This document shows, one piece after another, positions 3,619 through 64,000 of a stretch of 64,000 bases of DNA (positions are counted from its first letter, which is position 1; the number at the start of each line of letters is the position of its first letter). Under the pieces are notes generated by a model. It saw only the letters and a program-made list of their open reading frames with translations. It did not search any database and was not told the DNA's origin. Made by a program: the position numbers and the translations under genes. Source of the DNA: Gammaproteobacteria bacterium (GTDB lineage Bacteria; Pseudomonadota; Gammaproteobacteria; JBCCGL01); assembly GCA_965277715.1 (NCBI GenBank), contig OZ255836.1, positions 2,720,001 through 2,784,000 of the forward strand, written 5' to 3'.

Positions 3619-3986
3619 GTGATGCGTCAAGTGCGGAAGCCGTTACGTTACGGCAAGGCCGCTGCACCGGTTGTTGTCAACAATAGATCGGCTTTTGACT
3701 GTGGTGACGAGGCGTTAAACCTTTTTTTGCAGCGCCACGCCAGACAAAGCCATGAAAAAGGCAGTGCTAAAAGTTACCTCGTTATCGACGACGAGGATAA
3801 CAAAACCGTTTTAGGCTATTACAGTGTCAGCTCAGCCTCTATTACTTATGAACGTACACCGGCAGTAGTCAAGCGCAGTCTGGCCCGGTATGAAATACCG
3901 GTATTCCTTTGGATGATGCGCCGCTGACTTTGCTACTGCCCTTCAGTACTATCCATGCCGTGTTGGCATCGACCAGCAAGCTATGA
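3619..3986 (+). pseudogene. GNAT acetyltransferase toxin remnant (AtaT/TacT-like) with an internal deletion
   Basis: N-terminal half RSAFDCGDEALNLFLQRHARQ...LGYYSVS...YEIPVFL is joined out of frame to a C-terminal tail DDAPLTLLLPFSTI (3912-3986). The acetyl-CoA-binding core is missing and no antitoxin is seen. Confidence 0.7.
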
Positions 3987-4052
3987 TAAGCCTCTCTGCC
4001 TCTATAAAGCTATCCGGGTCGGAGTGCGCGAACAAATAAAGGGTACTGACCC

Positions 4053-5581
4053 CAATACCGCTACCTCAGCCTGGTGAAGAACTAAAATAACGTTAAAAGT
4101 CATATAGATGGGTAACGTTAGGTTTCCTTTTGAAGTATCCTTGTAAGCGACAAAACACACAAGTACTTCGCCAAAAAACCTAACGCTGACCTATTCTATG
4201 AAATTCGCTATCCGACAGCAAATTAAAACGATCAAATGTGTTTTTTTTCAGTTAAACACAGGAGACTTTAATAATTTACTCTGTTCCAAGCGTCTAAACG
4301 ACCTAAGCGAACTATCGGGCAGCTATCGAGACCGGGTATTCACCCCACTTGTTACACTGCGTTTATTTCTCTGGCAGGTGTTAAGTGATAATGGCAGTTG
4401 TAAAGAAACAGTCGCCCGTCTGCTAGTTGATCGTTTACAGGAAAACCTGCTTCCAAGTTCTTTTAATAGCGGTCCTTACTGTAAAGCCCGTCAACGTTTA
4501 TCTCTGTCGTGGGTACTTCAGGAGGTACGTTCAATCGGTTCAACGTTACATGCCAGAGCAGGTAAAATTTGGACATGGAAAGGGTATAATGTGGTGCTTG
4601 TGGATGGAACCACTGTTCTCATGCCTGATACCCAGAAAAATCAACATAAATACCCCCAGCAACAGACTCAAAAACCGGGTTTAGGTTTTCCTATTGCTCG
4701 AATAGTCGGACTCATTTCTTTAAGTTCTGGCGCTATTATTGATTATGCAATGGGAGAGTATCAAGGAAAGGGAACAGGGGAAATGTCATTATTCAGTACC
4801 CTGATGACGTCATTAACCGCCAATGATCTGTTACTGGCAGACCGCTATTACTGTACTTATGCTGTCTTAGCGGCTCTACAATCGAAAGGGGTTGCATTCG
4901 TCTCAATGAATCACGCACAAAAGAAAGCGGATTACAAAACAGGGTTAACGCTTGGTGCAAAAGATCATCTTATCGAGTGGGAAAAACCTAAAAGAAAACC
5001 GGTTTGGATGTCGCAATCAGACTTTGATCTATTGCCGAAAACCCTGACAGTTCGAGAATTTTCAGTGGATGGGACAGTCTATGTTAGCACTTTGTTGGAG
5101 GTTGATACTTACCCTAAGAAAGAGCTTTCAACACTGTATAAGGAACGTTGGAAAGTTGAATTGGATTTTCGTACAATTAAAACAGATTTGAAAATGGATA
5201 TGTTGCGATGCCATTCACCCGAGATGGTTGAAAAAGAAATAGCAACAACCTTTATGGCTTATAACCTGATTCGGGGTAGCATGGCAGAGTCAGCAAAAAC
5301 AGAGGGTGAAATAGCACGTCAAATAAGTTTTAAGGCAACGGTACAGCTACTGGGTATTGCTCATATTAAATTCATCCATTCAACATCCAGTATGATACAA
5401 AAAGCGTACACTTCCTTATTAAGGATAATCGCTTCAACGTTAATTGGCAGGAGAAAACGATCACCCCAACCAAGGGCAATTAAACGACGACCAAAAGCCT
5501 ACCCACTGTTAACTGAACCTCGTATCAAGGCCTCTCAGAGACTAAAAGATTCATTGGGTTAAACCTGAGGTAGCGGTATTG
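4053..5581 (+). mobile_element. IS4-family insertion sequence (IS-A)
   Basis: Perfect 17-bp TIR CAATACCGCTACCTCAG (4053-4069 / 5565-5581) and 11-bp direct repeat GGTACTGACCC (4042-4052 / 5582-5592). Confidence 0.93.
4198..5562 (+). CDS. IS4-family DDE transposase, apparently intact
   Basis: LVDGT, LADRYY and YKERWKVELDFRTIK (YREK signature). Confidence 0.93.
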   Translation: MKFAIRQQIKTIKCVFFQLNTGDFNNLLCSKRLNDLSELSGSYRDRVFTPLVTLRLFLWQVLSDNGSCKETVARLLVDRLQENLLPSSFNSGPYCKARQRLSLSWVLQEVRSIGSTLHARAGKIWTWKGYNVVLVDGTTVLMPDTQKNQHKYPQQQTQKPGLGFPIARIVGLISLSSGAIIDYAMGEYQGKGTGEMSLFSTLMTSLTANDLLLADRYYCTYAVLAALQSKGVAFVSMNHAQKKADYKTGLTLGAKDHLIEWEKPKRKPVWMSQSDFDLLPKTLTVREFSVDGTVYVSTLLEVDTYPKKELSTLYKERWKVELDFRTIKTDLKMDMLRCHSPEMVEKEIATTFMAYNLIRGSMAESAKTEGEIARQISFKATVQLLGIAHIKFIHSTSSMIQKAYTSLLRIIASTLIGRRKRSPQPRAIKRRPKAYPLLTEPRIKASQRLKDSLG

Positions 5582-49422: not shown

Positions 49423-49637
49423 TTAAGCGCGCAAATAGTTATCAATAAACGCCTGCAAAGCCAGCTCAGCCCCCTTAGGTACATGCAAGCCTTTTTTACT
49501 GCGCCGCCACAGAATGTCATCCGCGCTGGATGCCCATTCGTGCTCGATCAGGTATTCCACTTCGCGTTGGTAGAGTGGCCCACCAAAATGCTGGCCCAGT
49601 TCCGCCATTGTGTTGGCATCGCCAATCAGTGTGTGAA
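49423..49637 (-). pseudogene. Glycerol-3-phosphate dehydrogenase (GlpD) C-terminal fragment
   Basis: LGQHFGGPLYQREVEYLIEHEWASSADDILWRRSKKGL. Confidence 0.82.
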
Positions 49638-49655
49638 GTGAAAGGGGTCATATAT

Positions 49656-51215
49656 CAATGGCACTAAGTTAAGCGGTTTTAGCGGGTAAAATAAACGAAA
49701 AAATAACTGTAATAAACCCAACAAAACAGGCTGAAATGTTATAATTTTGTATGAAAAATACAACCTTATTTCTACCCGGATTTAACATCCAAACACTCCG
49801 CAAAACACCCCGTTCAGCCATTCAAATCTTGCACGATAAGATAGCAAAAATACGTCACAAATCACTGAGTGAACTACCTGTTTTTCTTGGCGATATCATA
49901 CCCACGAATATTCTTAAACCGAATGATTGTGGTGTGAATAGTCGTCGACGTATTTTCAGTAAAGAAAATACTTTCTGGTTGTTTTTTTAACAAATAATAA
50001 ACGCCGATGGTGGCTGTAAAGAAGTCGTTAGACAACTGCAAAATGTCGCCCACAACCAAGGCATTCCCATACCTTCATCATCCACCTCCGCCTATTGCCA
50101 AGCACGTAAAAAACTACCCATGGACGATCTTAAAAACGTATTTTCAGGGACGTGTCGATTATCGACACCTCAACCCAAAGCGCTCCAAGGTCGACCGGTT
50201 ATCGTTGCCGATGGGACAGGCCTATCCATGCCCGATACGCCCGCGAATCAACAAACTTACCCACAACCAAAATCACAAACACAGGGATGCGGATTTCCTC
50301 AAGCACGGCTTTTAGCTTGTTTTAATCTTTATAGCGGTTTAATTCTGAGCTATGCACTAGGAAATAAAAAAAGTCATGAGCTAAGACTTTTAGAAGAACA
50401 ATGGGATACCTTCAATGAAGGTGACATTTTCTTAGGTGATAAAGGTTTTTGCAGCTTCTACGATATTGACTGCCTCTCTCGACGAACGGTTGACAGTGTC
50501 GTTACATTGGCGCGGAGAACGCCCAGCACTGCCTCCCAGGCCAAAAAGAAGATAGCCGATAATGACCTTCATATTGAATGGCAAAAACCTAAACACACAA
50601 AAGCGACCCGTTACACAAAAGAGCAGCATAGCGACCTTCCAAAGACCTTAACTTTACGACAAATACACGTCAGTATTGTACGAAAAGGATTTAGGACGAA
50701 CCATTTTTATATCATCACGACACTACTTGATGCTCAGCAATATCCCGCTATAGAAATTATCGACCTCTATGCACAGCGCTGGAATGTGGAACTGTATTTT
50801 CGCAATATTAAAACCACCATGGGTATGGATATATTACGCTGTAAAACACCTGATATGGTTCGTAAGGAAATCATCATGCACATGATTGTTTACAACACGA
50901 TCAGGCACATCATGTGTGTCGCTTCATACCGACATGACACACCGGTTGATCGGCTAAGTCTTAAAGGTGTTTTGCAAACACTCCGACAAAGCACTTCATC
51001 ACTTGGTAGTGGGCAGAGTCCAGCACAAAAAAGACGGCAATATCTTGATTATTTATATGCAGCGATTGCGGATGACCGTGTGCTTCATCGACCTTTTAGG
51101 TTTGAACCAAGAGTGGTAAAAAGGCGACCTAAACCACGGGCATTAATGACTCGACCAAGGAACGTTTTAAAAACTGAATATTGGCAAGCTAAAGCGGCTT
51201 AACTTAGTGCCATTG
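49656..51215 (+). mobile_element. IS4-family insertion sequence (IS-B)
   Basis: 19-bp TIR CAATGGCACTAAGTTAAGC; 11-bp direct repeat GGGTCATATAT (49645-49655 / 51216-51226). Confidence 0.93.
49751..51202 (+). pseudogene. IS4 transposase with a single in-frame stop
   Basis: ORFs 49751 and 50120 share a frame, interrupted by TAA at 49988-49990. Motifs VADGT, LGDKGF, YAQRWNVELYFRNIK. Confidence 0.88.
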
Positions 51216-51221
51216 GGGTCA

Positions 51222-52170
51222 TATATGGACCCGCAGTTAAATTCAACAATTTTTTAATCGTTCATTCATTTTTTTAGCGTTCAGAGCAGACACAGTAAAT
51301 AAGGTTAGCAGTCATATATCCGGCTTCTCGATAGGACGGATTGTATTTGTTTATCCGTCCAGAGCCATAATGGGAACCGTGCTCAGACACCTCATCAAGC
51401 AATCGGTCTGTGAAGACCATGACCCCCTCCAGGTTCTGTCTGAGCCGGTTTAACCTGTTATACCCTTTACTGCTCTTTCGCTACCTCGTGGTAAGAAATC
51501 TTCAACGACGTTATTAAACTGTTTTATGCACGTAAGTTGTATTATTAGCCGCTACCGCCCAGCTAATTCTGGCGAGCTTATTGGCCAATGCCACCGCCGC
51601 CACACAATGGCCCCGACGTGCTTTGACACGACAGGCCCAACGACTTAGCCCATCATCGTGTTTAGGCATTCGACTTAATGCCGCTTGCGCCCCCTGTATC
51701 AACAAAGTGCGCACGTGTTCGTCCCCGCGTTTACTGATACCTTTGAGTTGCGTTTTGCCCCCCGAACTATATTGACGAGGAATGAGACCCAAAAAGGCGG
51801 AAAACTCACGCCCGTTTTTATAAAAACCCGGATCGCCCATTGCTGTAAACAAGGCAGTGGCGACCAGAGGCCCTACACCCGGCAGTGTTTTTAATTGCTA
51901 GCAGCGCTCATGCTGGTTACTCAACTGGGTTAACCGTTTTGTGTAGTGTGTTACGCGTTTATCAATCTCCACTCGTTCATCATACAAAGCACTGAACACT
52001 TCACGTGCTGTGCTTGAAAAATATTTTTGGCTAGATCAATACCCAATCGGGTGATATTCTCGTTCATGGACTCGCTCCTACCTTTATTAGGTGATAATAG
52101 ATTGGTTGTGTTACCGCTCAATCTTGGCACATTGTGATGCCGATTCAAAGGGAGCGGGTCCATCCCATCA
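51222..52170 (-). mobile_element. IS1111-type (IS110 family) element, copy 1, internally deleted
   Basis: Sub-terminal IRs ATGGACCCGC (51225-51234 / 52154-52163). GIDLAK start, DEDD domain mostly deleted, premature TAG, and C-terminal PRQYSSGGK...ANKLAR. Confidence 0.9.
51225..51513 (-). ncRNA. Putative bridge/seek RNA region of IS1111 copy 1
   Basis: Near-identical reverse complement of 61197-61483. Confidence 0.65.
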
Positions 52171-52176
52171 GGCAAG

Positions 52177-53145
52177 TTATTTACTATTTAACTGATTTTC
52201 AATTTGATGCATCACCTCTTTAAGTTCTCCCTTGTCCAGCTCTTTCTTGACGTGAGCTATTGCACTCGACACACCACCAGGGTGACTTAACCCAAAATGT
52301 TGAGTAATCGCCTTTAACGACATATCACCAAACCGCTGGCAGTAATACATGGCCAATTTGCGGGGAGTGTTCGCGCTACCTCCCTTACCTTGACTATCCG
52401 AAATACTGCCTTCACTCACTCGGCAACAATTTGCCACCGTTTTTACTATCACACTGCTGGCTACCTTTTCCCGCAATTGGGGCCGCACATCAACGCCACT
52501 CTGGCTTTCTTTGTACTCGGCCAACTGTGAGCGGAACACCTTGTCACCTAACACCGTCGATAGGTTATTTTTGCCGTAAAAGCGCTGTATATCCTCATCA
52601 ATCCCTTGGTCTACATAGTCTGTGTAACATTGACAGTCGTTTTTCACCGGTAAACAGGCATAAACACGATCACGACACAACCAAGCAGGGTTCAATGCTC
52701 TTCCTATGTAAGCCGGGTAACTAGACCAGGGATAGTTCTTTAGCGATTGAACCAGAGGTCGTTTAGTCTCAATGGGGTTTCTATGTATATAGCGAGACAG
52801 GGGTAATAGATACGCATCTTCATCGACATTGATGGCTTTAAATCGCCCTCTAAACTGAGGGCCATCCGTTTTTTTAAGGCGGTTATAACGCTGTGTATAG
52901 ACACCATCGATATGCTGCATAATGCGACTGAGGTTAGCATCAGGTGTTTCCAGCAGTAGGTGGTAGTGATTGCCCATTAGGCAATAAGCGTGAATCACGG
53001 CGTGAAAACGCTCTGCGGCTTCGGTCAATGTGGCGAGAAACGCTTGGTAGTAAGCTTCGCTATGAAAAACCGTCTTACGCTCCCGACCACGGTTTATTAT
53101 ATGGTAGAAGGCGTTTTCATATTCTATGCGGTGAGGTCTTGGCAT
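52177..53145 (-). CDS. RAYT-like HUH/Y1 transposase with a C-terminal DnaA-like HTH
   Basis: FYHIINRG, CLMGNHYHLL (HUH), GRFK, RYIHRNP (catalytic Tyr), YPWSSY, and C-terminal RKLAMYY...SLKAITQHFG. Confidence 0.9.
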   Translation of the reverse strand: MPRPHRIEYENAFYHIINRGRERKTVFHSEAYYQAFLATLTEAAERFHAVIHAYCLMGNHYHLLLETPDANLSRIMQHIDGVYTQRYNRLKKTDGPQFRGRFKAINVDEDAYLLPLSRYIHRNPIETKRPLVQSLKNYPWSSYPAYIGRALNPAWLCRDRVYACLPVKNDCQCYTDYVDQGIDEDIQRFYGKNNLSTVLGDKVFRSQLAEYKESQSGVDVRPQLREKVASSVIVKTVANCCRVSEGSISDSQGKGGSANTPRKLAMYYCQRFGDMSLKAITQHFGLSHPGGVSSAIAHVKKELDKGELKEVMHQIENQLNSK

Positions 53146-53297
53146 GGGGTGATATTGACATAATCTATGATAAATAACTAGCCTGACCCCTTTTCCCTAT
53201 ATGGTAGAAGGCGTTTTCATATTCTATGCGGTGAGGTCTTGGCATGGGGTGATATTGACATAATCTATGATAAATAACTAGCCTGACCCCTTTTCCC
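53098..53297 (+). repeat. Exact 2 x 100-bp tandem duplication of the RAYT 5' end and terminal motif
   Basis: 53098-53197 equals 53198-53297; each unit ends AAATAACTAGCCTGACCCCTTTTCCC. Confidence 0.92.
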
Positions 53298-53329
53298 TTT
53301 TTCCCTTTCTTTCCTTATGTTTTTACAAT

Positions 53330-53377: not shown

Positions 53378-56300
53378 TCAAAACCACGCTTTTAGAACGT
53401 GTTTTTTACTGACGCGCGTCTTAATACAAGGAAAACGCAGCCACAACGACAGTAGTAACAGCGTTAATAGACCAGTCAGTTCGATAATAGTCATGGCGCC
53501 ACCACCACCACCGCCGCCGCTGCTGCTGCTAGTGTCACTACCACTACCAACATTTCCGGGGTCAGCTATTTGACCATTGGTGGCATTATCCGCATCGTTG
53601 GGGCCACCATCAGTAATCGTTAGGCGTAAGCAGTTATTGCCTACCACTAGATTTGACTGCCAGCTGGCATCATCATAATCCGGGCAAGTACTCGTACCTA
53701 TACTCATCGTCGATGCCAATGCATCAGTGGCACCATTGCTATTGACTGTGGTGGTATCAAAATTTACCCAGCCCGAACGACCAGAATTAGTCAGTGCTAT
53801 GGGTAAATATTTTCGATAAACCGGGTTTATCGGTAGGGGCACACTGAGTGGAATAACCACATTGACCTGTTGACCGGCTACCGGCAGATTGAGCACTTCA
53901 AAGTCCACAATATCGCCGACACGCGATACGGTATCAGCAGGAAGAATTTCAGACCCAGAAGCATTCTGTGCCTGTGGTGTCACTGCCGCATTAAAACCCG
54001 TCGCGGCGCTTGAATTCGTGACAGCCGAGGCAAAGGCAATATTACCCAGACGTAAACTGACACCTGGCTCAGAGGTCACAAAACGAGACTCAGCCGTATC
54101 AATAGGCAGCAACTGGCTATTGTTATCCAGACGTTCAAGAAAGTTGGGCACCCGGTCACCGTCATCATCAGCCAGGCCCTCTGCCATATCGTCTTCTCCA
54201 TCGTTATCCCGATCCGAGCTGTTAGTCAAACCAGGGTCAGCCAATACCCTAAGCTGCAACTGCGTGCGTACTGTGGCAACACTATCCGAGACAGATAAGA
54301 TAACCACGGCAATACCTGCCTGGGCCGGAGCCGTAGCCATAACCGATGGAGTGTTGGTGTTCGGTACAACAATACCTGTGGAGGCACTCCAGTCATAGGT
54401 CAGGGTGTCGCCATTGGTATCTGTGGCATTGGCGTTGATAGTAATGGTACTCCCTGCCACAACAGATGAAACTGCTTTACTGCTGTTATTGATTGTGGAC
54501 GTTACTGTTAGTTCTGTTTGTGGTGCAATATTGTCGCTGATAACATTAATAGTCTGGGTACTATTAGCTCCGGAGGTAACCCGTTCAATAACCGGGTTTA
54601 TATTGTTATCGTTTTGTACAAATACCGCAGCGCTATTGTTCACCTGCAAAGTAATACTGCCAGTATTGGCACCAATGGCCAGGTTGATACGACTGCTCAA
54701 CTGATTTGGCGCAAAGCTGAAAGTGCCAGTACTGCTTACGGTATTGGTTGAGTTGCCGGTACTATTGGCTGTTATCCTATAGGGCACTGTCAAGGTGGAA
54801 GTACGATCAACCGGGTTACCGTTGAGGGTCAGAACCACGCTCGCCGTACCATTGGTGGACGTCGTGATATTTTCCGAATTAAAGGATACTCTCGGTATCA
54901 CATTAATAACCTGGGTTGCACCACCACCTAATGGCCAGTTGCCATTACTGTCTACGGCTATCCACCACAATGAGTGGGCGCCCGCTAACAGTAACAGGTT
55001 ATTGTTATTATCACGTCGCACAGCTTGACAAGCGGATGCAAAATTAGCGGGTAGAACTGTGCCAGTACACCGACCCGTACGAAAATAGGCTGAGGCAGGC
55101 ACAGTCAGTGTCGCTGAGGTTGACCCATTACTGTTGCTGGCAGTAGCAGCTGGCACGGCCGTGAAAACCGCCGTCGATATGACATTAACCGGTGTACTCA
55201 GGCTAATCACTGGGCGACTGTCACCAACCGACACCGTACTGTGATTGGAGATAGCAGGGTTTAAACCAATGCCCACTTCGACGACATCGGGTATACCATT
55301 ATTATTGGTATCGGTAGTTTGAGTCACATCAGCGCCATTGCCAATAAAGGTTTCCACATCATCGCTAATACCATCGGCATCACTGTCTGTAGCGCTACTA
55401 TCTGCGCTTTGTAGACTATCCGCGAGGCCGTCATTATCGACATCTACTGCCGACAATGTTCTGAACGTCGTGCTTGTGTAGTTGCTGCGATTGTTCTGCG
55501 TATCTGCCACAACAACGCTAATAGTATGAGAGTGGCCTGGCACCAAGTCACTAAAAGTGGCGCTGGTCGCTGATACTGACAATGTTTGGATACTATTGGT
55601 TATGGTATCGGTTACCGTCACCGTATAAGTCACTGGATTGGCATCGGTCGCAGCGTTCCAATTGATAGCCACCCCATTGGGTGTCGCTGTCACTGTGAGC
55701 GTAGTATCTGCGGGTAAGACGGGCGCATCTCTATCTGCTGGGGCGATATTAACGGTGATGCTAGGGGTGGTGGTCAAGTTGCCGCCATTGCCATCATTGC
55801 CACTGATAGTAATACTTGTGGCGGTTGTATTGTTTAGCGCCGTTGTATAACTCACATTGGACGTGGTATCCAAAAAGGTATTGAGATTGGCTGGGCTACC
55901 GGCAAGGATCAAGCCAGCTGTTCCCGAACCGCTGACAGTCACACCACCTGAGGTGCCATTACCCGATGCGGCGGCTAAGGTGCCTGAGGCAGCCGTCAAG
56001 GTAATGGTTAGGGCATCGCCATCAATATCGGCAAAGGTAGTGGCAGATAAATTGATAGTCGTCGCTACATTTTCAATCACCATTACCGTTGCAGGCGTAC
56101 CGGTGATGGTGGGTGCATCATTCGCTGGAGTGATATTAACGGTGATGCCAGGGTTGGTGGTCAAGTCACCACTATTGCCATCATTGCCAGTGATAGTAAT
56201 GCTTGTGGCGGCTGTATTGTTTAGCGCCGTTGTATAGGCCACATTGGTGGTGGTATCTAAAAAAGTATTGAGATTGGCTGGGCTACCGGCAAGGATCAAG

Positions 56301-58219
56301 CCAGCTGTTCCCGAACCGCTGACAGTCACGCCTGCGGCGGTGCCATTGCCCGATGCGGTGGCTAAGGTGCCCGAAGCAGCCGTCAAGGTGATGGTCAGGG
56401 TATCGCCATCGACATCGGCAAAGGTACTGGCAGATAAATCGATATCAGTGGCTATATCTTCAGTCACCGTGACCATTGCGGGCGTACCGGTGATGGTGGG
56501 TGCATCATTCGCTGGAGTGATATTAACGGTGATGCCAGGGTTGGTGGTCAAGTTGCCGCCATTGCCATCATTGCCACTGATAGTAATACTTGTGGCGGTT
56601 GTATTGTTTAGCGCCGTTGTATAACTCACATTGGTGGTGGTATCTAAAAAAGTATTGAGATTGGCTGGGCTACCGGCAAGTACCAGAGCAGCTGTTCCCG
56701 AATCGCTGACAGTCACACCACCTGAGGTGCCATTACCCGATGCGGCGGCTAAGGTGCCTGAGGCAGCCGTCAAGGTGATGGTTAGGGCATCGCCATCAAT
56801 ATCGGCAAAGGTGCTGGTAGATAAATCGATACTAGTCGCTACATCTTCAGCCACCGTTACCGTTGCAGGCGTACCGGTGATGGTGGGTGCATCATTCGCT
56901 GGGGTGATATTAACGGTGATGCCAGGGTTGGTGGTCAAGTCACCACTATTGCCATCATTGCCAGTGATAGTAATGCTTGTGGCAGTTGTATTGTTTAGCG
57001 CCGTGGTATAGGTCACATTGGTGGTGGTATCTAAAAAAGTATTGAGGTTGGCTGGGCTACCGGCAAGGATCAAGCTAGCTGTTCCCGAACCGCTAGCAGT
57101 TACGCCGCCTGAGGTGCCATTGCCCGATGCGGTGGCTAAGGTGCCCGAAGCAGCCGTCAAGGTGATGGTTAGGGTATCGCCATCGACATCGGCAAAGGTG
57201 CTGGCAGATAAATCGACATCAGTGGCTACATCTTCAGTCACCGTTACCATTGCGGGCGTACCGGTGATGGTGGGTGCATCATTCACTGCGGTGATATTAA
57301 CGGTGATACCAGGGGTGGTAGTCAAGTTGCCACCATTACCATCACCACCACTGATAGTAATGCTTGTGGCGGTTGTATTGTTTAGCGCCGTTGTATAACT
57401 CACATTGGTGGTGGTATCTAAAAAAGTATTGAGATTGGCTGGGCTACCGGCAAGTACCAGAGCAGCTGTTCCCGAACCGCTGACAGTCACGCCTGCGGCG
57501 GTGCCATTACCTGATGCGGTGGCCAGAGTGCCTGAGGCAGCAGTCAGGGTCGCAGTTATAGTATTGTTTTCAGCATCAGCAAAAGTGCTGGCAGATAAGT
57601 CGATACTGGTGGCTACATCTTCAGTCACCGTTACCGACGCAGGCACACTCGTTATGGTTGGCGGCGTATTAGATACAAGCGCCCTGATATCGGATATGGT
57701 AAAACCGCTTAATACAGCGTTAACACTATCATTCGATCCCTGGAATGAGAGCGAAACCGAGAATTGGGTGATATTATCAAATCTACCTGCTGTAGTATCC
57801 AGGCTGACTACGTTTGACAATGAACTCGAACCGACCATAAAGGTTTCTTGTGCACCATTACTGGCATTAATCACAACATTCATGGTACGTGTACTTCCAA
57901 AATCGAAGGCCCGAATCTGATCCAGGTCAAACGTCGCAAGATCAGTATTATCTGCGGTAAATGTCCAAGTGTGCTCACTTATGCTGATATTAGTCTCTCT
58001 TGCCAAGCCATTAACAAAACCCGAGTTAGTCGAGCTGAAAGCTGCCATATCTCCTACTGACGTAAGACCAATGGTAAACCCGTCGTTCGTATTGCCGTTC
58101 GTGTTATTGGAATAGTAGGCTGCATCAGTATTGTGAACAGTGGGTATGGTGGCAAACGCACTGGTGCTCAAACTTGCCAAGAGCACACTAAAGGTAAGGA
58201 AACAGGGTTTTTTATACAT
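53378..58219 (-). CDS. Large repetitive surface protein/adhesin with a GlyGly-CTERM anchor
   Basis: Signal peptide; five 129-aa cadherin/Ig-like repeats (NDAPTI...FADxDGD); FN3-like domain; DxDxDG Ca-binding motifs; choice-of-anchor-U-like TITDGGPNDAD; GGGGGGG plus TM helix and basic tail. Confidence 0.87.
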   Translation of the reverse strand: MYKKPCFLTFSVLLASLSTSAFATIPTVHNTDAAYYSNNTNGNTNDGFTIGLTSVGDMAAFSSTNSGFVNGLARETNISISEHTWTFTADNTDLATFDLDQIRAFDFGSTRTMNVVINASNGAQETFMVGSSSLSNVVSLDTTAGRFDNITQFSVSLSFQGSNDSVNAVLSGFTISDIRALVSNTPPTITSVPASVTVTEDVATSIDLSASTFADAENNTITATLTAASGTLATASGNGTAAGVTVSGSGTAALVLAGSPANLNTFLDTTTNVSYTTALNNTTATSITISGGDGNGGNLTTTPGITVNITAVNDAPTITGTPAMVTVTEDVATDVDLSASTFADVDGDTLTITLTAASGTLATASGNGTSGGVTASGSGTASLILAGSPANLNTFLDTTTNVTYTTALNNTTATSITITGNDGNSGDLTTNPGITVNITPANDAPTITGTPATVTVAEDVATSIDLSTSTFADIDGDALTITLTAASGTLAAASGNGTSGGVTVSDSGTAALVLAGSPANLNTFLDTTTNVSYTTALNNTTATSITISGNDGNGGNLTTNPGITVNITPANDAPTITGTPAMVTVTEDIATDIDLSASTFADVDGDTLTITLTAASGTLATASGNGTAAGVTVSGSGTAGLILAGSPANLNTFLDTTTNVAYTTALNNTAATSITITGNDGNSGDLTTNPGITVNITPANDAPTITGTPATVMVIENVATTINLSATTFADIDGDALTITLTAASGTLAAASGNGTSGGVTVSGSGTAGLILAGSPANLNTFLDTTSNVSYTTALNNTTATSITISGNDGNGGNLTTTPSITVNIAPADRDAPVLPADTTLTVTATPNGVAINWNAATDANPVTYTVTVTDTITNSIQTLSVSATSATFSDLVPGHSHTISVVVADTQNNRSNYTSTTFRTLSAVDVDNDGLADSLQSADSSATDSDADGISDDVETFIGNGADVTQTTDTNNNGIPDVVEVGIGLNPAISNHSTVSVGDSRPVISLSTPVNVISTAVFTAVPAATASNSNGSTSATLTVPASAYFRTGRCTGTVLPANFASACQAVRRDNNNNLLLLAGAHSLWWIAVDSNGNWPLGGGATQVINVIPRVSFNSENITTSTNGTASVVLTLNGNPVDRTSTLTVPYRITANSTGNSTNTVSSTGTFSFAPNQLSSRINLAIGANTGSITLQVNNSAAVFVQNDNNINPVIERVTSGANSTQTINVISDNIAPQTELTVTSTINNSSKAVSSVVAGSTITINANATDTNGDTLTYDWSASTGIVVPNTNTPSVMATAPAQAGIAVVILSVSDSVATVRTQLQLRVLADPGLTNSSDRDNDGEDDMAEGLADDDGDRVPNFLERLDNNSQLLPIDTAESRFVTSEPGVSLRLGNIAFASAVTNSSAATGFNAAVTPQAQNASGSEILPADTVSRVGDIVDFEVLNLPVAGQQVNVVIPLSVPLPINPVYRKYLPIALTNSGRSGWVNFDTTTVNSNGATDALASTMSIGTSTCPDYDDASWQSNLVVGNNCLRLTITDGGPNDADNATNGQIADPGNVGSGSDTSSSSGGGGGGGAMTIIELTGLLTLLLLSLWLRFPCIKTRVSKKHVLKAWF
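55745..57670 (-). repeat. Five tandem 387-bp intragenic repeats
   Basis: Equivalent positions at 55857, 56244, 56631, 57018 and 57405 (period 387). Array ends approximate. Confidence 0.9.
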
Positions 58220-58339
58220 AGAGTCTGGCTCGTAATAGTTTTTTAAAATCGTTAAGGTCGCAGCAAGCTAGACTAGTTTTTCGATAATGTAAACTTAAAT
58301 AATGCTTTTTATGAAAGATGAATGAAAGGGGTCAGGCAA

Positions 58340-59905
58340 GAATGGCACTTCCTTAAGCTCTAAGTACATGAAAAATATGGAAGTATTTTCATTGTAAATG
58401 ACCTATTTCTGTTTTTTGGGATGGCCATATTTTTTAACAACACTTCTGGCCACGTTCCTTGGCTGCATCAATAAAGGATATGGTTTGGGTCTTCGTTTAA
58501 CCACTCTTGGTTCAATACGCCCCGGTCGATTACCCACACAGTTTTCTGCAATCAACGCACATAGCGCCAACACCTTATCACTACCCAGAGGGCTACTGCC
58601 TTTCTGATAACGATACGCTACCCAAATTTGTAACGTATGCTTAAAACTTATCTGTCGAGGCAGTATGTCCACTAGTAAGGCAGATTGCGCCATTAATAAG
58701 CGAATAAGGTTGTAAGCTAATATGTGTACCCACATTTCCTTCTCAACCATTTCTGGCGTCTTACAACGGAAGGTGTGCATCTTCATTGTCGTTTTTATAT
58801 GGCGTAAATCAAGTTCGACATGCCAGCGTTCTTTGTAGAGCTGTTTAAGCGCCTCTTTAGACGCCGATTTAACTGATAACAACGTTGTCACCAACAGTTT
58901 TTTACCCACTTTCAGTTCACGTATAACCACTTCATCAGCAGCCGCTTCATAGGCTTCTTCGCTCATCCACTCTGGTCTCTTCTTGGGCTTTGTATAACAA
59001 ATCAGGTGATCCTTCGATCCAAGCCTTTTGCCTTCTCGAAAATCTGTGGATTTACGCCGCGCACCATGCGGCTCAAATACACCGTCTACTCCTTGCTCTA
59101 TAAGGTTTGCTAGAAAAAAATAACCCGCAAAATAGGCATCACCCACCACAATATCACCCGGTTTAAGCGCATTTTGTATTTTTCTCAATAACGTTTGCTC
59201 ATCCGCTCCCTTACCTTTAAAAGGACCCATTGCCGCATCGAGAACACCACCACTGGCTAAACAAATAATTCCTACCCAGCGACAAAGAGGAAAACCGATC
59301 CCCACTTGCTGGCCTGACTGTTGCGGATAAACTACCTGATTTTCAGGCGTATCGGGCATTGTCACAGTGGTGCCGTCAACCAATTTAACTGAACGCCCTT
59401 GCCAGTGCCAGTGACTGGCCGCTTCATTCGCCACACACTCGCCTGTACAACGGGCAAGCCCTGAGACGAGGGGGGTTGGCAGCCTTTGTCGCGCTTTACA
59501 ATAACTCCCTGTATACGTATTACTCACTGATAAACCTTCACTTAATCGCTGTACAGCGAGTGTGTTGACAGCTTGTTGGCAGGACTGATCTGCACTCATT
59601 GTTTGGTATAAAAACAGCGATAAGGTGTCTAGAGGAGGATAGCGACGCGCTCGAAAATCCGGTTGTAATTCTTCCAGTTTCGTAAGTAACTGAGAGGATG
59701 TCAGCAAGTGATAAAAACTCAATGCATCCGAGGATTGAGCTCGGCTTTTGATGCGACGTTGAAGAATGTTGACTTTTACATTACTCTGCATGATGGCTGG
59801 TTCCTGTGGGATAAAGGGTATTTGTGTTGGCAATAAATAACCTACCATAGAACCAGCTTTTTTTGTAATTACTTCAAATACTTACAGCTTAAGGAAGTGC
59901 CATTC
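58340..59905 (-). mobile_element. IS4-family insertion sequence (IS-C)
   Basis: 19-bp TIR GAATGGCACTTCCTTAAGC at both ends; the flanks are not direct repeats. Confidence 0.92.
58403..59791 (-). CDS. IS4-family DDE transposase, apparently intact
   Basis: LVDGT, VGDAYF, YKERWHVELDLRHIK; start at 59791 or 59848. Confidence 0.92.
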   Translation of the reverse strand: MQSNVKVNILQRRIKSRAQSSDALSFYHLLTSSQLLTKLEELQPDFRARRYPPLDTLSLFLYQTMSADQSCQQAVNTLAVQRLSEGLSVSNTYTGSYCKARQRLPTPLVSGLARCTGECVANEAASHWHWQGRSVKLVDGTTVTMPDTPENQVVYPQQSGQQVGIGFPLCRWVGIICLASGGVLDAAMGPFKGKGADEQTLLRKIQNALKPGDIVVGDAYFAGYFFLANLIEQGVDGVFEPHGARRKSTDFREGKRLGSKDHLICYTKPKKRPEWMSEEAYEAAADEVVIRELKVGKKLLVTTLLSVKSASKEALKQLYKERWHVELDLRHIKTTMKMHTFRCKTPEMVEKEMWVHILAYNLIRLLMAQSALLVDILPRQISFKHTLQIWVAYRYQKGSSPLGSDKVLALCALIAENCVGNRPGRIEPRVVKRRPKPYPLLMQPRNVARSVVKKYGHPKKQK

Positions 59906-59916
59906 TAGCCTGACCC

Positions 59917-60124
59917 GAATGGCACTTCCTTAAGCTGTAAGTATTTGAAAGTATTGGTACTACATGCTTGGTTCAGATAACTTGGCATATGGTTCTTGAA
60001 AGCAATATTTGTAAAACTATCCCGGTTATCATTGGCGGCAACTTTCAAAATATCATTTTTTTTCTTAGAAATAATAAATAAACTCTTTACTATCAGTTGC
60101 TTACGTCTTAAGGAAGTGCCATTC
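59917..60124. mobile_element. 208-bp MITE-like derivative of IS-C
   Basis: Both ends read GAATGGCACTTCCTTAAG inward; no transposase. Confidence 0.82.
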
Positions 60125-60312
60125 GGGTCAATGCAGTTATTTCCTATACTTCTTGCTGGAAATCACTGTTTTTATCCGTATTAGTCGTTGTATGGTGAAT
60201 AATAAGCCTGATGGGATGGACCCGCTCCCTTTGAATCGGCATCACAATGTGCCAAGATTGAGCGGTAACACAACCAATCTATTATCACCTAATAAAAGGT
60301 AGGAGCGAGTCC

Positions 60313-61196
60313 ATGAACGAGAATATCACCCGATTGGGTATTGATCTAGCCAAAACTATTTTTCAAGTGTGTGGTGCTAATAAACACGGTAAAGTGGTGT
60401 TTAATAAAAAAACTTAAACGCGATCAGCTACCGTCTTATATCGCCAATGTACCGGCCTGTGAGGTGGTGATGGAAGCGTGTGCGACGTCCAGTTATTGGT
60501 CGCAGGTTTTCACACGCTACGGCCATACAGTCAAACTCATTAACCCAGCCTATGTACGCCCTTACGTTAAAACAAAGAAGAACGATGCAGCGGATGCAGA
60601 GGCGCTGTGTGAAGCAGCCTCACGTCCGAGTATGCGATTTGTTCAGCCCAAAACACCCGACCAACAAGACAGCCAATTACTCCACCGGGTGCGCAGTCGG
60701 CTAGTGTCAAAACGGACGAGTTTAAGTAATCAGATAAGAGGGTTACTGGGTGAGTATGGGCTGATTATTCCGGTGGGTATTCACCACGTTCACCAGCACT
60801 TGCCTGCGCTTTTAGAGGATGCTGAAAACGGGTGTAGGGCCTCTGGTCGCCACTGCTTTGTTTGTAGCAATGGGTGATCCGGGTTTTTATAAAAATGGGC
60901 GTGAGTTTTCCGCCTTTTTGGGTCTCGTTCCTCGTCAATATAGTTCGGGGGGCAAAACACAACTCAAAGGTATCAGTAAACGCGGAGACGAACACGTGCG
61001 CACTTTGTTGATACAGGGGGCGCAAGCGGCATTAAGTCGAATGCCTAAACACGATGATGGGCTAAGTCGTTGGGCCTGTCGTGTCAAAGCACGTCGGGGC
61101 CATTGTATGGCGGCGGTGGCATTGGCCAATAAGCTCGCCAGAATTAGCTGGGCGGTAGCGGCTAATAATACAACTTACGTGCATAAAACGGCTTAA
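60313..61196 (+). pseudogene. IS110 recombinase pseudogene
   Basis: MNENITRLGIDLAK start; frameshift in an A-run near 60405-60412; VMEAC and KNDAADAEA motifs; out-of-frame deletion near 60830; then GVGP...SSGGK...ANKLAR. Confidence 0.88.
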
Positions 61197-61483
61197 TAAC
61201 GTCGTTGAAGATTTCTTACCACGAGGTAGCGAAAGAGCAGTAAAGGGTATAACAGGTTAAACCGGCTCAGACAGAACCTGGAGGGGTCATGGTCTTCACA
61301 GACCGATTGCTTGATGAGGTGTCTGAGCACGGTTCCCATTATGGCTCTGGACGGATAAACAAATACGATCCGTCCTATCGAGAAGCCGGATATATGACTG
61401 CTAACCTTATTTACTGTGTCTGCTCTGAACGCTAAAAAATGAATAAACGATTAAAAAATTGTTGAATTTAACTGCGGGTCCAT
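61197..61483 (+). ncRNA. Putative bridge/seek RNA region of IS1111 copy 2
   Basis: Two stem-closed internal loops matching the target (GGGGTCA 61283-61289; TTGCTTGA 61307-61314) and the donor junction (TCCCATTAT 61334-61342; ATATATGA 61390-61397). Confidence 0.7.
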
Positions 61484-61608
61484 ATATGACCCCTTTTCTT
61501 TTCTTTCCCTTTTCCTTTCCAGATTAAAATACCCTCGATACTATTTTTTATTTCCAGAATTTTTTAGTGCCTTTATATAATGCCTGTCCTTAATCATTTC
61601 TTTTAGAC

Positions 61609-63001: not shown

Positions 63002-64000
63002 TCAGTGTTTCAAAATTCCTGGCTGTCGAGGTTTTAAATGCCTCACTAAGCTATGCATAATAGTTCTAAGGGACTTTCTTGTCATTATTGCATTTTGCAG
63101 AGAGCGGATGGTGAATGAGCATATACGGGTAATTCTAGCGTAAAAAAACAATGGATTAACAAAGCCGCCTTTTTTCTGGGCAATTTGTTGTCTCTTATCA
63201 AGCATTTTAGTGTATTTTTTATCAGATGGATGAATACATTCCAGGTTTTTTGTTTTTGATATTTCTTCAAAAATACGCATGATATTATAGGCCATAGCAG
63301 TAAAACGCATTTGACTGTTCAGCGCATTCAGGTTTGAAGACCAGGCTTTTCTTTCGGTGAAATCACTTTTACTATTGTTGAATGATTTTTCTATCGTCCA
63401 ACGCTTGTAATAGAGCATAGCAATAGTGCCTGGGTTAATTGACTCTGGTAGCGTTGAAATAAATTGATGTAATTGACCTGTTTCTGGGTCGCGGTATTTA
63501 ACAATATGAAATTGAACCTTTTTATTTTTATATACACTATAGCCTTCAACCCCTGTATTAATTTCACTACCCTGGTCATAGGGTATAGAGTTGACAAAAG
63601 TTGCAACTGCATTTTCTTTGAGTACTGAAATCATAAAATTCTGATGCTGTTTTTGCTTTTCCCACCATGCATAATCAGTCACCGCCTTATCGTATATATA
63701 GAGATGCTTTTGCCAAGTCTCTTTTTCGCCACAACGTTGTTCAATATAAGAACGTAACGCGGGTATTTCCTGGTGCCGTTCAGTACCGTTAGTCACGACA
63801 CAAAGTGGTCTTAGAAGTCCATTTCTGAGGTTCAAGGCATGAATAAAGCCTGCTGCGAAGACGTTGCCCTGACGATTTTTCTCTGTGTGACAAGCATGCT
63901 GTATAAAATGACCATCAGCTGCTTCTACTCGATATTCTTCAAGTTCAGGAAATTGTTTTAAATAATCAATGTCCAAAGAAGATAATTTCTCACTTTGCAG
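63002..64000 (-). CDS. IS4-like DDE transposase, 5' part beyond the window
   Basis: AADGH, IYDKA, YYKRWTIEKSFNNSK; probable element end CATCAGTG near 63000. Confidence 0.8.
   Translation of the reverse strand: MQSEKLSSLDIDYLKQFPELEEYRVEAADGHFIQHACHTEKNRQGNVFAAGFIHALNLRNGLLRPLCVVTNGTERHQEIPALRSYIEQRCGEKETWQKHLYIYDKAVTDYAWWEKQKQHQNFMISVLKENAVATFVNSIPYDQGSEINTGVEGYSVYKNKKVQFHIVKYRDPETGQLHQFISTLPESINPGTIAMLYYKRWTIEKSFNNSKSDFTERKAWSSNLNALNSQMRFTAMAYNIMRIFEEISKTKNLECIHPSDKKYTKMLDKRQQIAQKKGGFVNPLFFYARITRICSFTIRSLQNAIMTRKSLRTIMHSLVRHLKPRQPGILKH

What the first reader, a model, noticed from the sequence alone, without database searches (positions are those of the whole stretch)
61197..61493. IS1111 bridge/seek RNA visibly programmed against the RAYT end motif
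Seen: reconstructed targets are CTTGCC-TGA-CCCC and TAAGCC-TGA-CCCC, and the circle junction is CATATA-TGA-TGGGA. Loop 1 is closed by CTCAGACA/TGTCTGAG and GGTCT/AGACC and carries GGGGTCA and TTGCTTGA, matching both target halves (one G:U-compatible change). Loop 2 surrounds GGCT...GGACGGAT/ATCCGTCC...AGCC and carries TCCCATTAT and ATATATGA, matching both donor halves. Established: IS110/IS1111 recombinases use such bispecific guide RNAs, encoded downstream of the gene in IS1111. Inference: a natural guide aimed at another mobile system's recognition site, with an apparent 3-nt TGA core.
Basis: partly seen in the sequence, partly recalled or inferred. Interest (0 to 1): 0.8.

Follow-up and report, generated by a model that had tools for sequence, protein, structure and literature searches.

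The report
Guide RNA of a decayed IS1111 element

Summary
Observation confirmed. Window 60209-61486 (+) and 51222-52170 (-) are two decayed copies of one IS1111-group (IS110-family) element. The 290-nt region after the transposase stop holds a structured RNA (model hit 61241-61421).

- **Guide segments:** GGGGTCA and TTGCTTGA match the two strands of the target CTTGCC-TGA-CCCC. TCCCATTA and ATATATGA match the left and right element ends. All four occurred together in 0 of 20,000 shuffles.
[quoted passage not shown] 17 of 19 helix pairs show compensatory changes.
- **Guides track flanks and ends:** all four guide segments follow their own flanks or ends, with 0 of 2000 shuffles reaching the observed match.
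- **Target:** the motif forms the 19-of-20 inverted repeats around a RAYT-like Y1 transposase gene (52177-53145) and also sits in a REP hairpin loop.
- **Core:** the "3-nt core" is a real 3-nt identity. Relatives suggest only two guide-covered positions.

Guide RNAs in IS1111 elements, REP targets and targets belonging to other mobile elements are all in print. This is a new member of a known kind, and both copies here have broken transposase genes.

The parts
60209..61486 (+). IS copy 1, with ends set by the published 7-bp left / 3-bp right extension convention: TGATGGG + ATGGACCCGC ... GCGGGTCCAT + ATA.
   Evidence: The 10-bp subterminal inverted repeats lie at 60216-60225 and 61474-61483. 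The empty-site-like sequence at 58328-58340 holds TGA only once.
60313..61196 (+). Transposase pseudogene of copy 1. It has one extra base in the A-run at about 60406 (a frameshift) and lacks 143 nt between 60828 and 60829.
   Evidence: Pfam DEDD_Tnp_IS110 and Transposase_20 match the two ORF pieces. Metagenome contigs lack 1 nt at 60406 and carry 143 nt at 60828/60829.
61241..61421 (+). Seek/bridge RNA gene of copy 1 (covariance-model hit, 129 bits).
61283..61289 (+). Target guide, 5' side of loop 1: GGGGTCA, complementary to the top strand TGACCCC.
61307..61314 (+). Target guide, 3' side of loop 1: TTGCTTGA, same sense as the left half-target plus TGA (TTGCCTGA). The single difference is G:U-compatible.
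61334..61341 (+). Donor segment 5' of stem 2: TCCCATTA, complementary to the left end TGATGGGA with one G:U.
61390..61397 (+). Donor segment 3' of stem 2: ATATATGA, same sense as the right end ATATA plus TGA.
61462..61489 (+). Candidate junction promoter half. TTGAAT (61462-61467) and a 17-nt spacer are followed by TATGA. This reads TATGAT only when joined to the left end, and TATGAC in the integrated state.
   Evidence: Read. The scan does not list it in the integrated state. Inference by analogy with junction promoters reported for the family (passages seen).
51222..52170 (-). IS copy 2. It has a large internal deletion and an in-frame TAG, and its RNA gene lies at 51288-51469 (134 bits). 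It is flanked CTTGCC-TGA ... TGA-CCCCAATGGCAC.
   Evidence: It is 97.7-98.7% identical to copy 1 in the shared parts.
52177..53145 (-). RAYT-like Y1 (HUH) transposase gene with a C-terminal DnaA-type helix-turn-helix.
   Evidence: Pfam Y1_Tnp 51.4 bits and Bac_DnaA_C 30.8 bits. The NCBIfam REP_Tyr_transpos model gives the best hit, 62.3 bits against a cut-off of 80. HYH and YIHRNP motifs are present.
53171..53190 (+). 5'-flanking copy of the motif, TAAATAACTAGCCTGACCCC. It is unoccupied and is repeated at 53271-53290. It is the inverted partner of the copy that holds IS copy 2 (52168-52183 plus 51215-51218).
   Evidence: 19 of 20 positions identical.
58328..58340 (-). Unoccupied full target CTTGCCTGACCCC beside a REP arm.
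59887..59940 (+). REP hairpin with an 18-bp stem. Its loop holds TAGCCTGACCC, a near-target.

Best explanation
61197-61493 is the right non-coding end of an IS1111-group (IS110-family) insertion sequence and encodes its seek/bridge RNA.

**Structure.** Stem-loop 1 has an outer stem, a CCU/AGG helix and an inner hairpin. It presents two target guides: GGGGUCA for the top strand of TGACCCC, and UUGCUUGA for the bottom strand of TTGCCTGA. Two segments flanking stem 2, UCCCAUUA and AUAUAUGA, match the left and right element ends across the circle junction CATATA-TGA-TGGGA.

**Proposed mechanism (inferred).** By analogy with ISEc11, ISPa11 and IS621, the DEDD transposase bound to this RNA would pair the excised circle with the target and recombine them at the shared TGA.

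**Target.** The natural target is a repeat, GCC-TGA-CCCC. It forms the inverted repeats around a RAYT-like gene and occurs in REP hairpin loops.

**Shown here:** the anatomy, homology, helix covariation, guide-to-DNA covariation, and the position of the target motif.

**Inferred:** RNA expression, binding to the transposase, the cleavage positions, and recognition of the motif by the RAYT-like protein.

Both window copies have dead transposase genes. Any activity here would need an intact copy elsewhere in the genome.
For: **Element anatomy**
- Transposase domains PF01548 and PF02371 match the ORF pieces.
- The closest full-length relatives are 341 aa and 82% identical over the C-terminal piece.
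- The element has 10-bp subterminal inverted repeats, a 7-bp left and 3-bp right extension, and a 290-nt region after the stop against about 100 nt before the start.

**RNA conservation and structure**
- The covariance model built from 25 sequences hits 84 places in 77 of 81 sources. In the window it hits only the two IS copies.
- 97.0% of cells are paired against 64.3% in shuffles, and 17 of 19 pairs show compensatory change.

**Target guides track flanks (55 unique guide sets)**
- 3' guide against left flank: 4.91 of 7 matches for cognate pairs, 2.06 for non-cognate.
- 5' guide against right flank: 5.05 against 3.05.
- 0 of 2000 shuffles reached either sum.

**Donor segments track ends (51 unique sets)**
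- Left-end segment: 6.75 of 9 against 6.15.
- Right-end segment: 7.39 of 8 against 5.61.
- 0 of 2000 shuffles reached either sum.

**This element's own matches:** all four guide matches occurred together in 0 of 20,000 shuffles.

**Closest relatives show reprogramming**
- L001/L002 keep the flanking TGA and CCCC but have left flank GCTGG(C/T), with guide CUGGCUGA.
- L005 has guides CGGCCUGA and GGGUGCCA. These fit a different REP hairpin that lies next to a RAYT-like gene fragment.

**Literature**
- IS1111 seekRNAs lie downstream of the transposase gene, with the top-strand match first (PMC11187229, sections 6, 9 and 13 read).
- 93% of IS1111 elements have a predicted bridge RNA in the right end, and the donor nucleotides often sit in a multi-loop (PMC11208160, section 12 read).
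Against: - No expression data exist for this RNA.
- Both window copies have inactivated transposase genes. The RNA region is no better conserved between the copies than the rest of the element (97.7-98.7%), so nothing shows current selection.
- In the free-RNA minimum-energy fold the two target guides partly pair with each other. Mean unpaired probabilities are 0.34 and 0.39, against 0.37 for the whole RNA.
- Copy 1's left flank TAAGCC matches the guide at only 5 of 8 positions, plus one G:U-compatible position.
- The alignment was fitted to the model, which favours the modelled structure.
- Related loci are not phylogenetically independent.
- Rfam holds no matching family.
Confidence: 0.9

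Rival explanations
1. Fossil only. The RNA gene is a correct homologue of a seek/bridge RNA, but in this genome it is an inert relic carried by two dead IS copies, with no guide activity today.
For: - Copy 1 has a frameshift and a 143-nt deletion. Copy 2 has a large deletion and a stop codon.
- The region is crowded with other transposase genes and remnants.
- No whole genome was available to look for an intact copy.
Against: - Contigs of four public runs carry the version without the frameshift. Contigs of two of them (X1, X6) also carry the extra 143 nt. Intact copies therefore exist in related populations and could act in trans.
- Both RNA genes score full-length against the model (129 and 134 bits).
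Confidence: 0.3
2. The segment TCCCATTA and its family counterpart CCAUCA are mainly one strand of an RNA helix formed with a conserved 5' leader (family consensus UGAUGG). On this reading it is not a donor guide.
For: The leader and segment columns are paired in 92.6% of cells. 16 cells show changes on both sides, against 3.0 in shuffles.
Against: - In L009 and L061 the segment follows the left-end DNA (TGTA) and not the leader.
- The match to the left end runs further than the leader complement does.
- The helix is not in the minimum-energy fold of the window's own RNA.
- The two roles are not mutually exclusive.
Confidence: 0.1
3. The matches are DNA-level repeats of the element ends, acting as extra transposase-binding sites, or simply chance. 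They are not RNA guides.
For: ATATATGA is a direct repeat of the right end. TCCCATTA is an inverted near-repeat of the left end.
Against: - All four matches occurred together in 0 of 20,000 shuffles.
- Compensatory changes in 17 of 19 RNA helix pairs frame the segments.
- The target-matching segments follow flanking DNA that is not part of the element.
- RNA dependence has been shown experimentally for family members (PMC11187229, abstract and section 9 read).
Confidence: 0.03

Closest known systems
ISPa11 (IS1111 family, Pseudomonas aeruginosa)
   Same: - Subterminal inverted repeats.
- The RNA lies downstream of the transposase gene and co-purifies with the transposase.
- The top-strand match lies 5' of the bottom-strand match.
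- The target is a REP (PMC11187229, passages and section 9).
   Different: - The guide and target sequences and the host differ.
- No direct sequence comparison with ISPa11 was made here.
- The element here is known only as two broken copies plus metagenome contigs.
ISEc11 (IS1111 family, seekRNA prototype)
   Same: - Same overall layout.
- A promoter forms at the circle junction.
- A programmable seekRNA is essential for movement.
   Different: ISEc11 has a short linear target rather than a repeat associated with another mobile element.
IS621 (IS110 group, bridge RNA prototype)
   Same: - A bispecific RNA with target and donor loops.
- The natural targets are REPs.
- A short core is shared by donor and target (PMC11208160).
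   Different: - In IS621 the RNA lies upstream of the gene, the donor guides sit in a simple internal loop, and the core is the dinucleotide CT.
- Here the RNA lies downstream, the donor segments sit in a multi-branch loop, and the identity is TGA.
IS4321/IS5075 and ISKpn4/ISPst6 (IS1111 family)
   Same: Their targets are recognition sequences of other mobile systems: Tn21-family terminal repeats and integron attC sites. These were seen as a reference title and an introduction passage of PMC11187229.
   Different: Here the targeted system is a RAYT-like gene with its flanking repeat.
ISPpu9 / ISPpu10 (IS110 group, Pseudomonas putida)
   Same: They insert at a fixed position in REPs. A target stem-loop contributes to ISPpu10 specificity (PMC12288879 passages; preprint 10.64898/2026.03.19.712850, abstract only).
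   Different: They belong to the IS110 group, have an AG dinucleotide at the ends, and carry the RNA upstream.

Membership tests
IS1111 group of the IS110 family | DEDD (RuvC-like) N-terminal domain plus a PF02371 C-terminal domain. | tested here: met
   PF01548 at 52.4 bits and PF02371 at 75.2 bits on the two ORF pieces. The gene is broken. The full-length relative P0001 scores 349.5 bits on NCBIfam transpos_IS110.
IS1111 group of the IS110 family | Subterminal inverted repeats of about 7-17 bp with asymmetric terminal extensions (7 or 6 bp left, 3 bp right). | tested here: met
   ATGGACCCGC / GCGGGTCCAT (10 bp). The extensions are TGATGGG and ATA once the single TGA of the empty-site-like sequence is assigned to the target.
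IS1111 group of the IS110 family | The long non-coding region lies downstream of the transposase gene. | tested here: met
   61197-61486 (290 nt) after the stop, against 60209-60312 (104 nt) before the start.
seekRNA / bridge RNA | A structured RNA with two segments matching opposite strands of the target, overlapping at the insertion point, with the top-strand match 5' in IS1111 elements. | tested here: met
   GGGGTCA (61283) lies 5' of TTGCTTGA (61307), and the two overlap on TGA. Both segments track their flanks across 55 guide sets.
seekRNA / bridge RNA | Segments matching both element ends (donor recognition). | tested here: met
   TCCCATTA and ATATATGA. Both track the ends across 51 sets. 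The left-end signal is modest (6.75 against 6.15 of 9).
seekRNA / bridge RNA | The RNA is expressed, binds the transposase and is needed for transposition. | not testable with these tools
RAYT (REP-associated tyrosine transposase) | Y1 HUH transposase fold and motifs. | tested here: met
   PF01797 at 51.4 bits. HYH and YIHRNP motifs are present.
RAYT (REP-associated tyrosine transposase) | Passes the curated RAYT model. | tested here: not met
   NF047646 is the best-scoring family at 62.3 bits, below its 80-bit cut-off. The protein has an extra DnaA-type C-terminal domain. It is therefore called RAYT-like here.
RAYT (REP-associated tyrosine transposase) | The gene is flanked by inverted copies of the repeat it is associated with, and the 3' copy lies at or next to the stop codon. 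| tested here: met
   GGGGTCAGGC(T/A)AGTTATTTA matches at 19 of 20 positions, and the 3' copy overlaps the stop codon (compare the PMC2817692 discussion passage).
RAYT (REP-associated tyrosine transposase) | The repeat is abundant genome-wide and the gene is single-copy. | not testable with these tools
   No genome is held for the window. In the window, GCCTGACCCC occurs 3 times against 0.12 expected, in addition to the two occupied sites.

The most novel reading that the evidence does not exclude
In this IS1111 subgroup the RNA carries a conserved 5' leader (family consensus UGAUGG) that copies the top strand of the element's own left end. The leader can pair with the left-end guide segment, making a built-in donor mimic. 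Such a mimic could keep the donor site of the RNA closed until the real left end or the transposase displaces it. In most relatives all guide segments also read G at the second junction position, where the integrated left junction has A. In this element and L001/L002 the position is G throughout, giving the full TGA identity.
Probability: 0.15. Interest if true: 0.55.

Novelty: new member of a known kind. Interest (0 to 1): 0.27.

Why it matters
The result shows that a tool-free reading can correctly pick out a natural guide RNA together with its target and donor matches.

It also provides a worked natural set for one IS1111 subgroup:
- 55 guide/target pairs and 51 guide/end pairs.
- Evidence on which positions are read: about six flank positions on each side, plus two junction positions.

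Biologically, it adds a case in which an RNA-guided insertion sequence lives on the repeat that brackets a RAYT-like gene. The relative L005, with different guides, shows the same habit. This fits the long-known preference of the family for REPs and for sites belonging to other mobile elements. It does not change the current picture of how these systems work.

Tried and rejected
**Searches that found nothing or could not run**
- Rfam at gathering thresholds: 0 matches in the whole window.
- Distant DNA search of plasmids: only 9-24% of the query covered, at 66-73% identity. No close relative.
- Exact 43-nt pattern in metagenome contigs: 0 matches.
- The whole genome of the window is not held, so genome-wide copy numbers, an intact copy and a target logo could not be obtained.
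- Sequencing runs: no RNA holder listed, so nothing can be said about expression.
- PDB sequence search with the RAYT-like protein: 0 hits at E <= 0.01.
- Promoter and terminator scan of 60150-61560: no more sites than in shuffles (2 against 2.0, and 1 against 1.7). The one terminator-like hairpin is the right inverted repeat pairing with the flank.

**Ideas considered and set aside**
- The likeness of the right half-target TGACCCC to the element's own inverted repeat (GGACCCG) was treated as chance, because L003 and L006 share the target half but not the repeat sequence.
- The leader helix was not found in the minimum-energy fold of the window's own RNA.

**Rows dropped from the flank analysis**
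- Automatic end-calling failed for 11 of 84 RNA hits.
- 13 further rows were dropped from the target-guide test because of contig ends, wrong inverted repeats or nested copies (listed).

**Material not seen**
- Supplementary tables of the two 2024 papers were not seen. They may already list this element or its close relatives.
- ISfinder could not be consulted.

**Read laying settings.** One search was run at 90% likeness. The 143-nt joint has sides of 255 nt (X1) and 36 nt (X6).

Full report
**Anatomy**

The window holds two copies of one insertion sequence.
- Copy 1 is on the plus strand. It reads TAAGCC-TGA-TGGG-ATGGACCCGC ... GCGGGTCCAT-ATA-TGA-CCCC, with the inverted repeats at 60216-60225 and 61474-61483.
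- Copy 2 is on the minus strand at 51222-52170 and is flanked CTTGCC-TGA ... TGA-CCCCAATGGCAC.
- The ORF pieces of copy 1 match the two Pfam domains of IS110-family transposases (PF01548 and PF02371).
- The nearest full-length proteins in the large protein collection are 341 aa and at most 82% identical to the C-terminal piece.
- The finding's coordinates, 61197-61493, run from the base after the transposase stop codon through the right end and into the CCCC of the flank.

- The stretch folds far better than shuffles: z = -5.41, with 0 of 200 shuffles as good.
- In 20,000 shuffles of the RNA core, the two target matches occurred together at a frequency of 0.00055. All four matches never occurred together.

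**Comparative evidence**

An alignment of 18 full-length relatives retrieved 80 loci from genome records, 42-59% identical to the query protein.
- The non-coding region of the window aligns to many of these loci.
- A 25-sequence alignment gave a consensus structure with an outer stem, a conserved CCU/AGG helix, an inner hairpin and a second stem closed by GGCC/GGCC.
- The covariance model built from it found 84 matches in 77 of 81 sources. [quoted passage not shown] - On that alignment, 97.0% of cells are paired against 64.3% in shuffles, and 17 of 19 pairs show changes on both sides. Sliding the partners by one column drops pairing to 43-46%. The alignment was fitted to the model, so this leans towards the structure.

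**Guides follow their DNA**

I located the element ends from the subterminal inverted repeats, independently of the RNA. Ends were called for 73 of 84 hits. I then compared guide segments at fixed positions of the RNA alignment with the flanks.

Target guides, over 55 unique guide sets (60 rows kept):

| Guide | Compared with | Cognate | Non-cognate |
|---|---|---|---|
| 3' guide | left flank (7 nt) | 4.91 | 2.06 |
| 5' guide | complement of right flank (7 nt) | 5.05 | 3.05 |

0 of 2000 re-pairings reached either sum.

Donor segments, over 51 unique sets:

| Segment | Compared with | Cognate | Non-cognate |
|---|---|---|---|
| 3' of stem 2 | right end (8 nt) | 7.39 | 5.61 |
| 5' of stem 2 | left end (9 nt) | 6.75 | 6.15 |

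- Again 0 of 2000 re-pairings reached either sum.
- For the right-end segment, three variable positions agree in all 51 sets or in all but three.
- The left-end signal is smaller.

Two relatives make this concrete.
- L001/L002 keep TGA and CCCC but have left flank GCTGG(C/T), and their guide reads CUGGCUGA.
- L005 has guides CGGCCUGA and GGGUGCCA, which fit a different REP hairpin.

These loci are related to one another, so the counts are not independent events.

**What the target is**

The ORF at 52177-53145 on the minus strand has a Y1 (IS200-like) transposase domain and a DnaA-type helix-turn-helix.
- It carries HYH and YIHRNP motifs.
- Its best NCBIfam match is the RAYT model, but below that model's cut-off (62.3 against 80 bits).
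- The gene is bracketed by inverted copies of a 20-nt motif identical at 19 of 20 positions. The 3' copy overlaps the stop codon, and IS copy 2 sits inside it at TGA.
- Copy 1 sits in a solo, diverged copy of the same motif. Compare the flanks of 60203-60211 and 61487-61500 with 53171-53300.
- Unoccupied copies lie at 53181, 53281 and 58328. A near-copy forms the loop of an 18-bp REP hairpin at 59887-59940.
- GCCTGACCCC occurs 3 times in the window against 0.12 expected.

That the protein recognises the motif remains inference. In L005 a fragment of a RAYT-like gene (46.7% identity over 75 residues) also lies next to the occupied REP.

**State of the copies**

- Copy 1 has a frameshift in an A-run and an internal deletion.
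- Copy 2 has a larger deletion and a TAG stop.
- Contigs from four public runs were laid on copy 1. Three of these runs are labelled sponge metagenome.
- Wherever they cover it, the contigs lack one base at 60406. Contigs of two runs (X1, X6) carry 143 extra bases between 60828 and 60829. Both defects are therefore private to this copy, and full-length versions exist elsewhere.
- Loose ends in those contigs add further left flanks that end in GCC or ACC before TGA.

**The core**

For this element the donor junction and the target share TGA, and an empty-site-like sequence holds it once.

Across the 55 guide sets:
- The first of the three junction bases is the same at both ends in 52.
- The first two are the same in 12.
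- All three are the same in 5. These are the two window copies, L001, L008 and L036.

The right-end segment tracks the first two positions but not the third. In 38 of 51 sets the left-end segment reads G where the integrated left junction has A.

The published convention for IS1111 elements counts these bases as part of a 7-bp left extension (passage of PMC11187229). "Three-base core" is thus correct as an identity but not established as the exchanged segment.

**A probable junction promoter**

TTGAAT (61462-61467) followed by a 17-nt spacer reads TATGAT only when the right end is joined to the left end. In the integrated state it reads TATGAC, and the scan does not list it in that state. Junction promoters are reported for this family (passages seen). 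For this element it is inference.

**Comparison with what is known**

- SeekRNAs of IS1111 elements lie downstream of the transposase gene, with the top-strand match first (PMC11187229, abstract and sections 6, 9 and 13 read).
- Bridge RNAs were predicted in 93% of IS1111 elements, often with the donor nucleotides in a multi-loop (PMC11208160, section 12 and passages read).
- REPs have been known as targets of this family since 2003-2006 (PMC1525189, abstract; reference titles; ISPpu9 passages; ISPpu10 preprint, abstract).
- Family members also target recognition sites of other mobile systems: Tn21-family ends and integron attC sites.
- A full-text search for papers holding both "RAYT" and "bridge RNA" found none. 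The explicit link to a RAYT flank may therefore be unstated in that library, but it follows directly from REP targeting.

The finding is a new member of a known kind.

**Limits**

- No genome was available for the window.
- Supplementary files were not seen.
- No expression data could be obtained.

Noticed in passing
window 53101-53300: An exact-looking 100-bp tandem duplication. It covers the first roughly 15 codons of the RAYT-like gene, its upstream region and the flanking motif, so the unoccupied target motif appears twice (53181 and 53281).
   Followed up: partly
window 49632-49680 (minus strand): A REP scaffold like the one at 58328. Here the left half-target CTTGCC is replaced by GATATA, which resembles the last bases of the IS right end, and is followed by TGACCCC. 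This may be a scar of an aberrant excision or deletion.
   Followed up: no
alignment A3 columns 2-7 with 184-189; window 61241-61250 with 61334-61341: A conserved 5' leader (consensus UGAUGG) has the same sense as the element's left end and can pair with the left-end guide segment. The columns are paired in 92.6% of cells, with 16 double changes against 3.0 in shuffles. The helix is not in the minimum-energy fold of the window's own RNA.
   Followed up: partly
loci L001-L080 (table): In 38 of 51 unique relatives the guide segments specify G at the second junction position, while the integrated left junction reads A (TAA or CAA against TG or CG on the right). This element and L001/L002 are exceptions, with TGA on both sides.
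   Followed up: partly
L005:2350-2420 and 3860-4400: A relative about 50% identical is inserted in a long REP hairpin. A RAYT-like gene fragment and a second copy of the same REP lie within 500 bp, and the relative's guides fit that different target.
   Followed up: partly
window 61282-61286 and 51420-51428: The G-run of the 5' target guide differs in length between the two copies (GGGG against GGGGG). It also varies among metagenome contigs.
   Followed up: no
window 4047, 5587, 5601: A second repeat family, TGACCCCAATACC, occurs here, partly palindromic and once in tandem. It shares the right half-target and resembles the right flank of the related element in L003.
   Followed up: no
window 60108-60135: A lone left arm of the REP hairpin is followed by GGGTCA and then unrelated sequence, as if the repeat had been cut at the same TGA/TCA position by another event.
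   Followed up: no
window 50120-51202 (+), 58403-59848 (-), 63002-63976 (-): Three DDE (PF01609) transposase genes lie in the same 14 kb as the two IS1111 copies and the RAYT-like gene. This is a patch rich in mobile elements.
   Followed up: partly
window 53378-58219 (-): A 1613-aa ORF with several near-identical internal repeats of about 129 residues. These are visible as a series of 126-aa antisense ORFs spaced 387 nt apart.
   Followed up: no
window 61476-61502: The right inverted repeat pairs with the right half-target (GGGTC/GACCC) and is followed by a T-rich flank, giving a terminator-like hairpin in the integrated state. The count is no higher than in shuffles.
   Followed up: no
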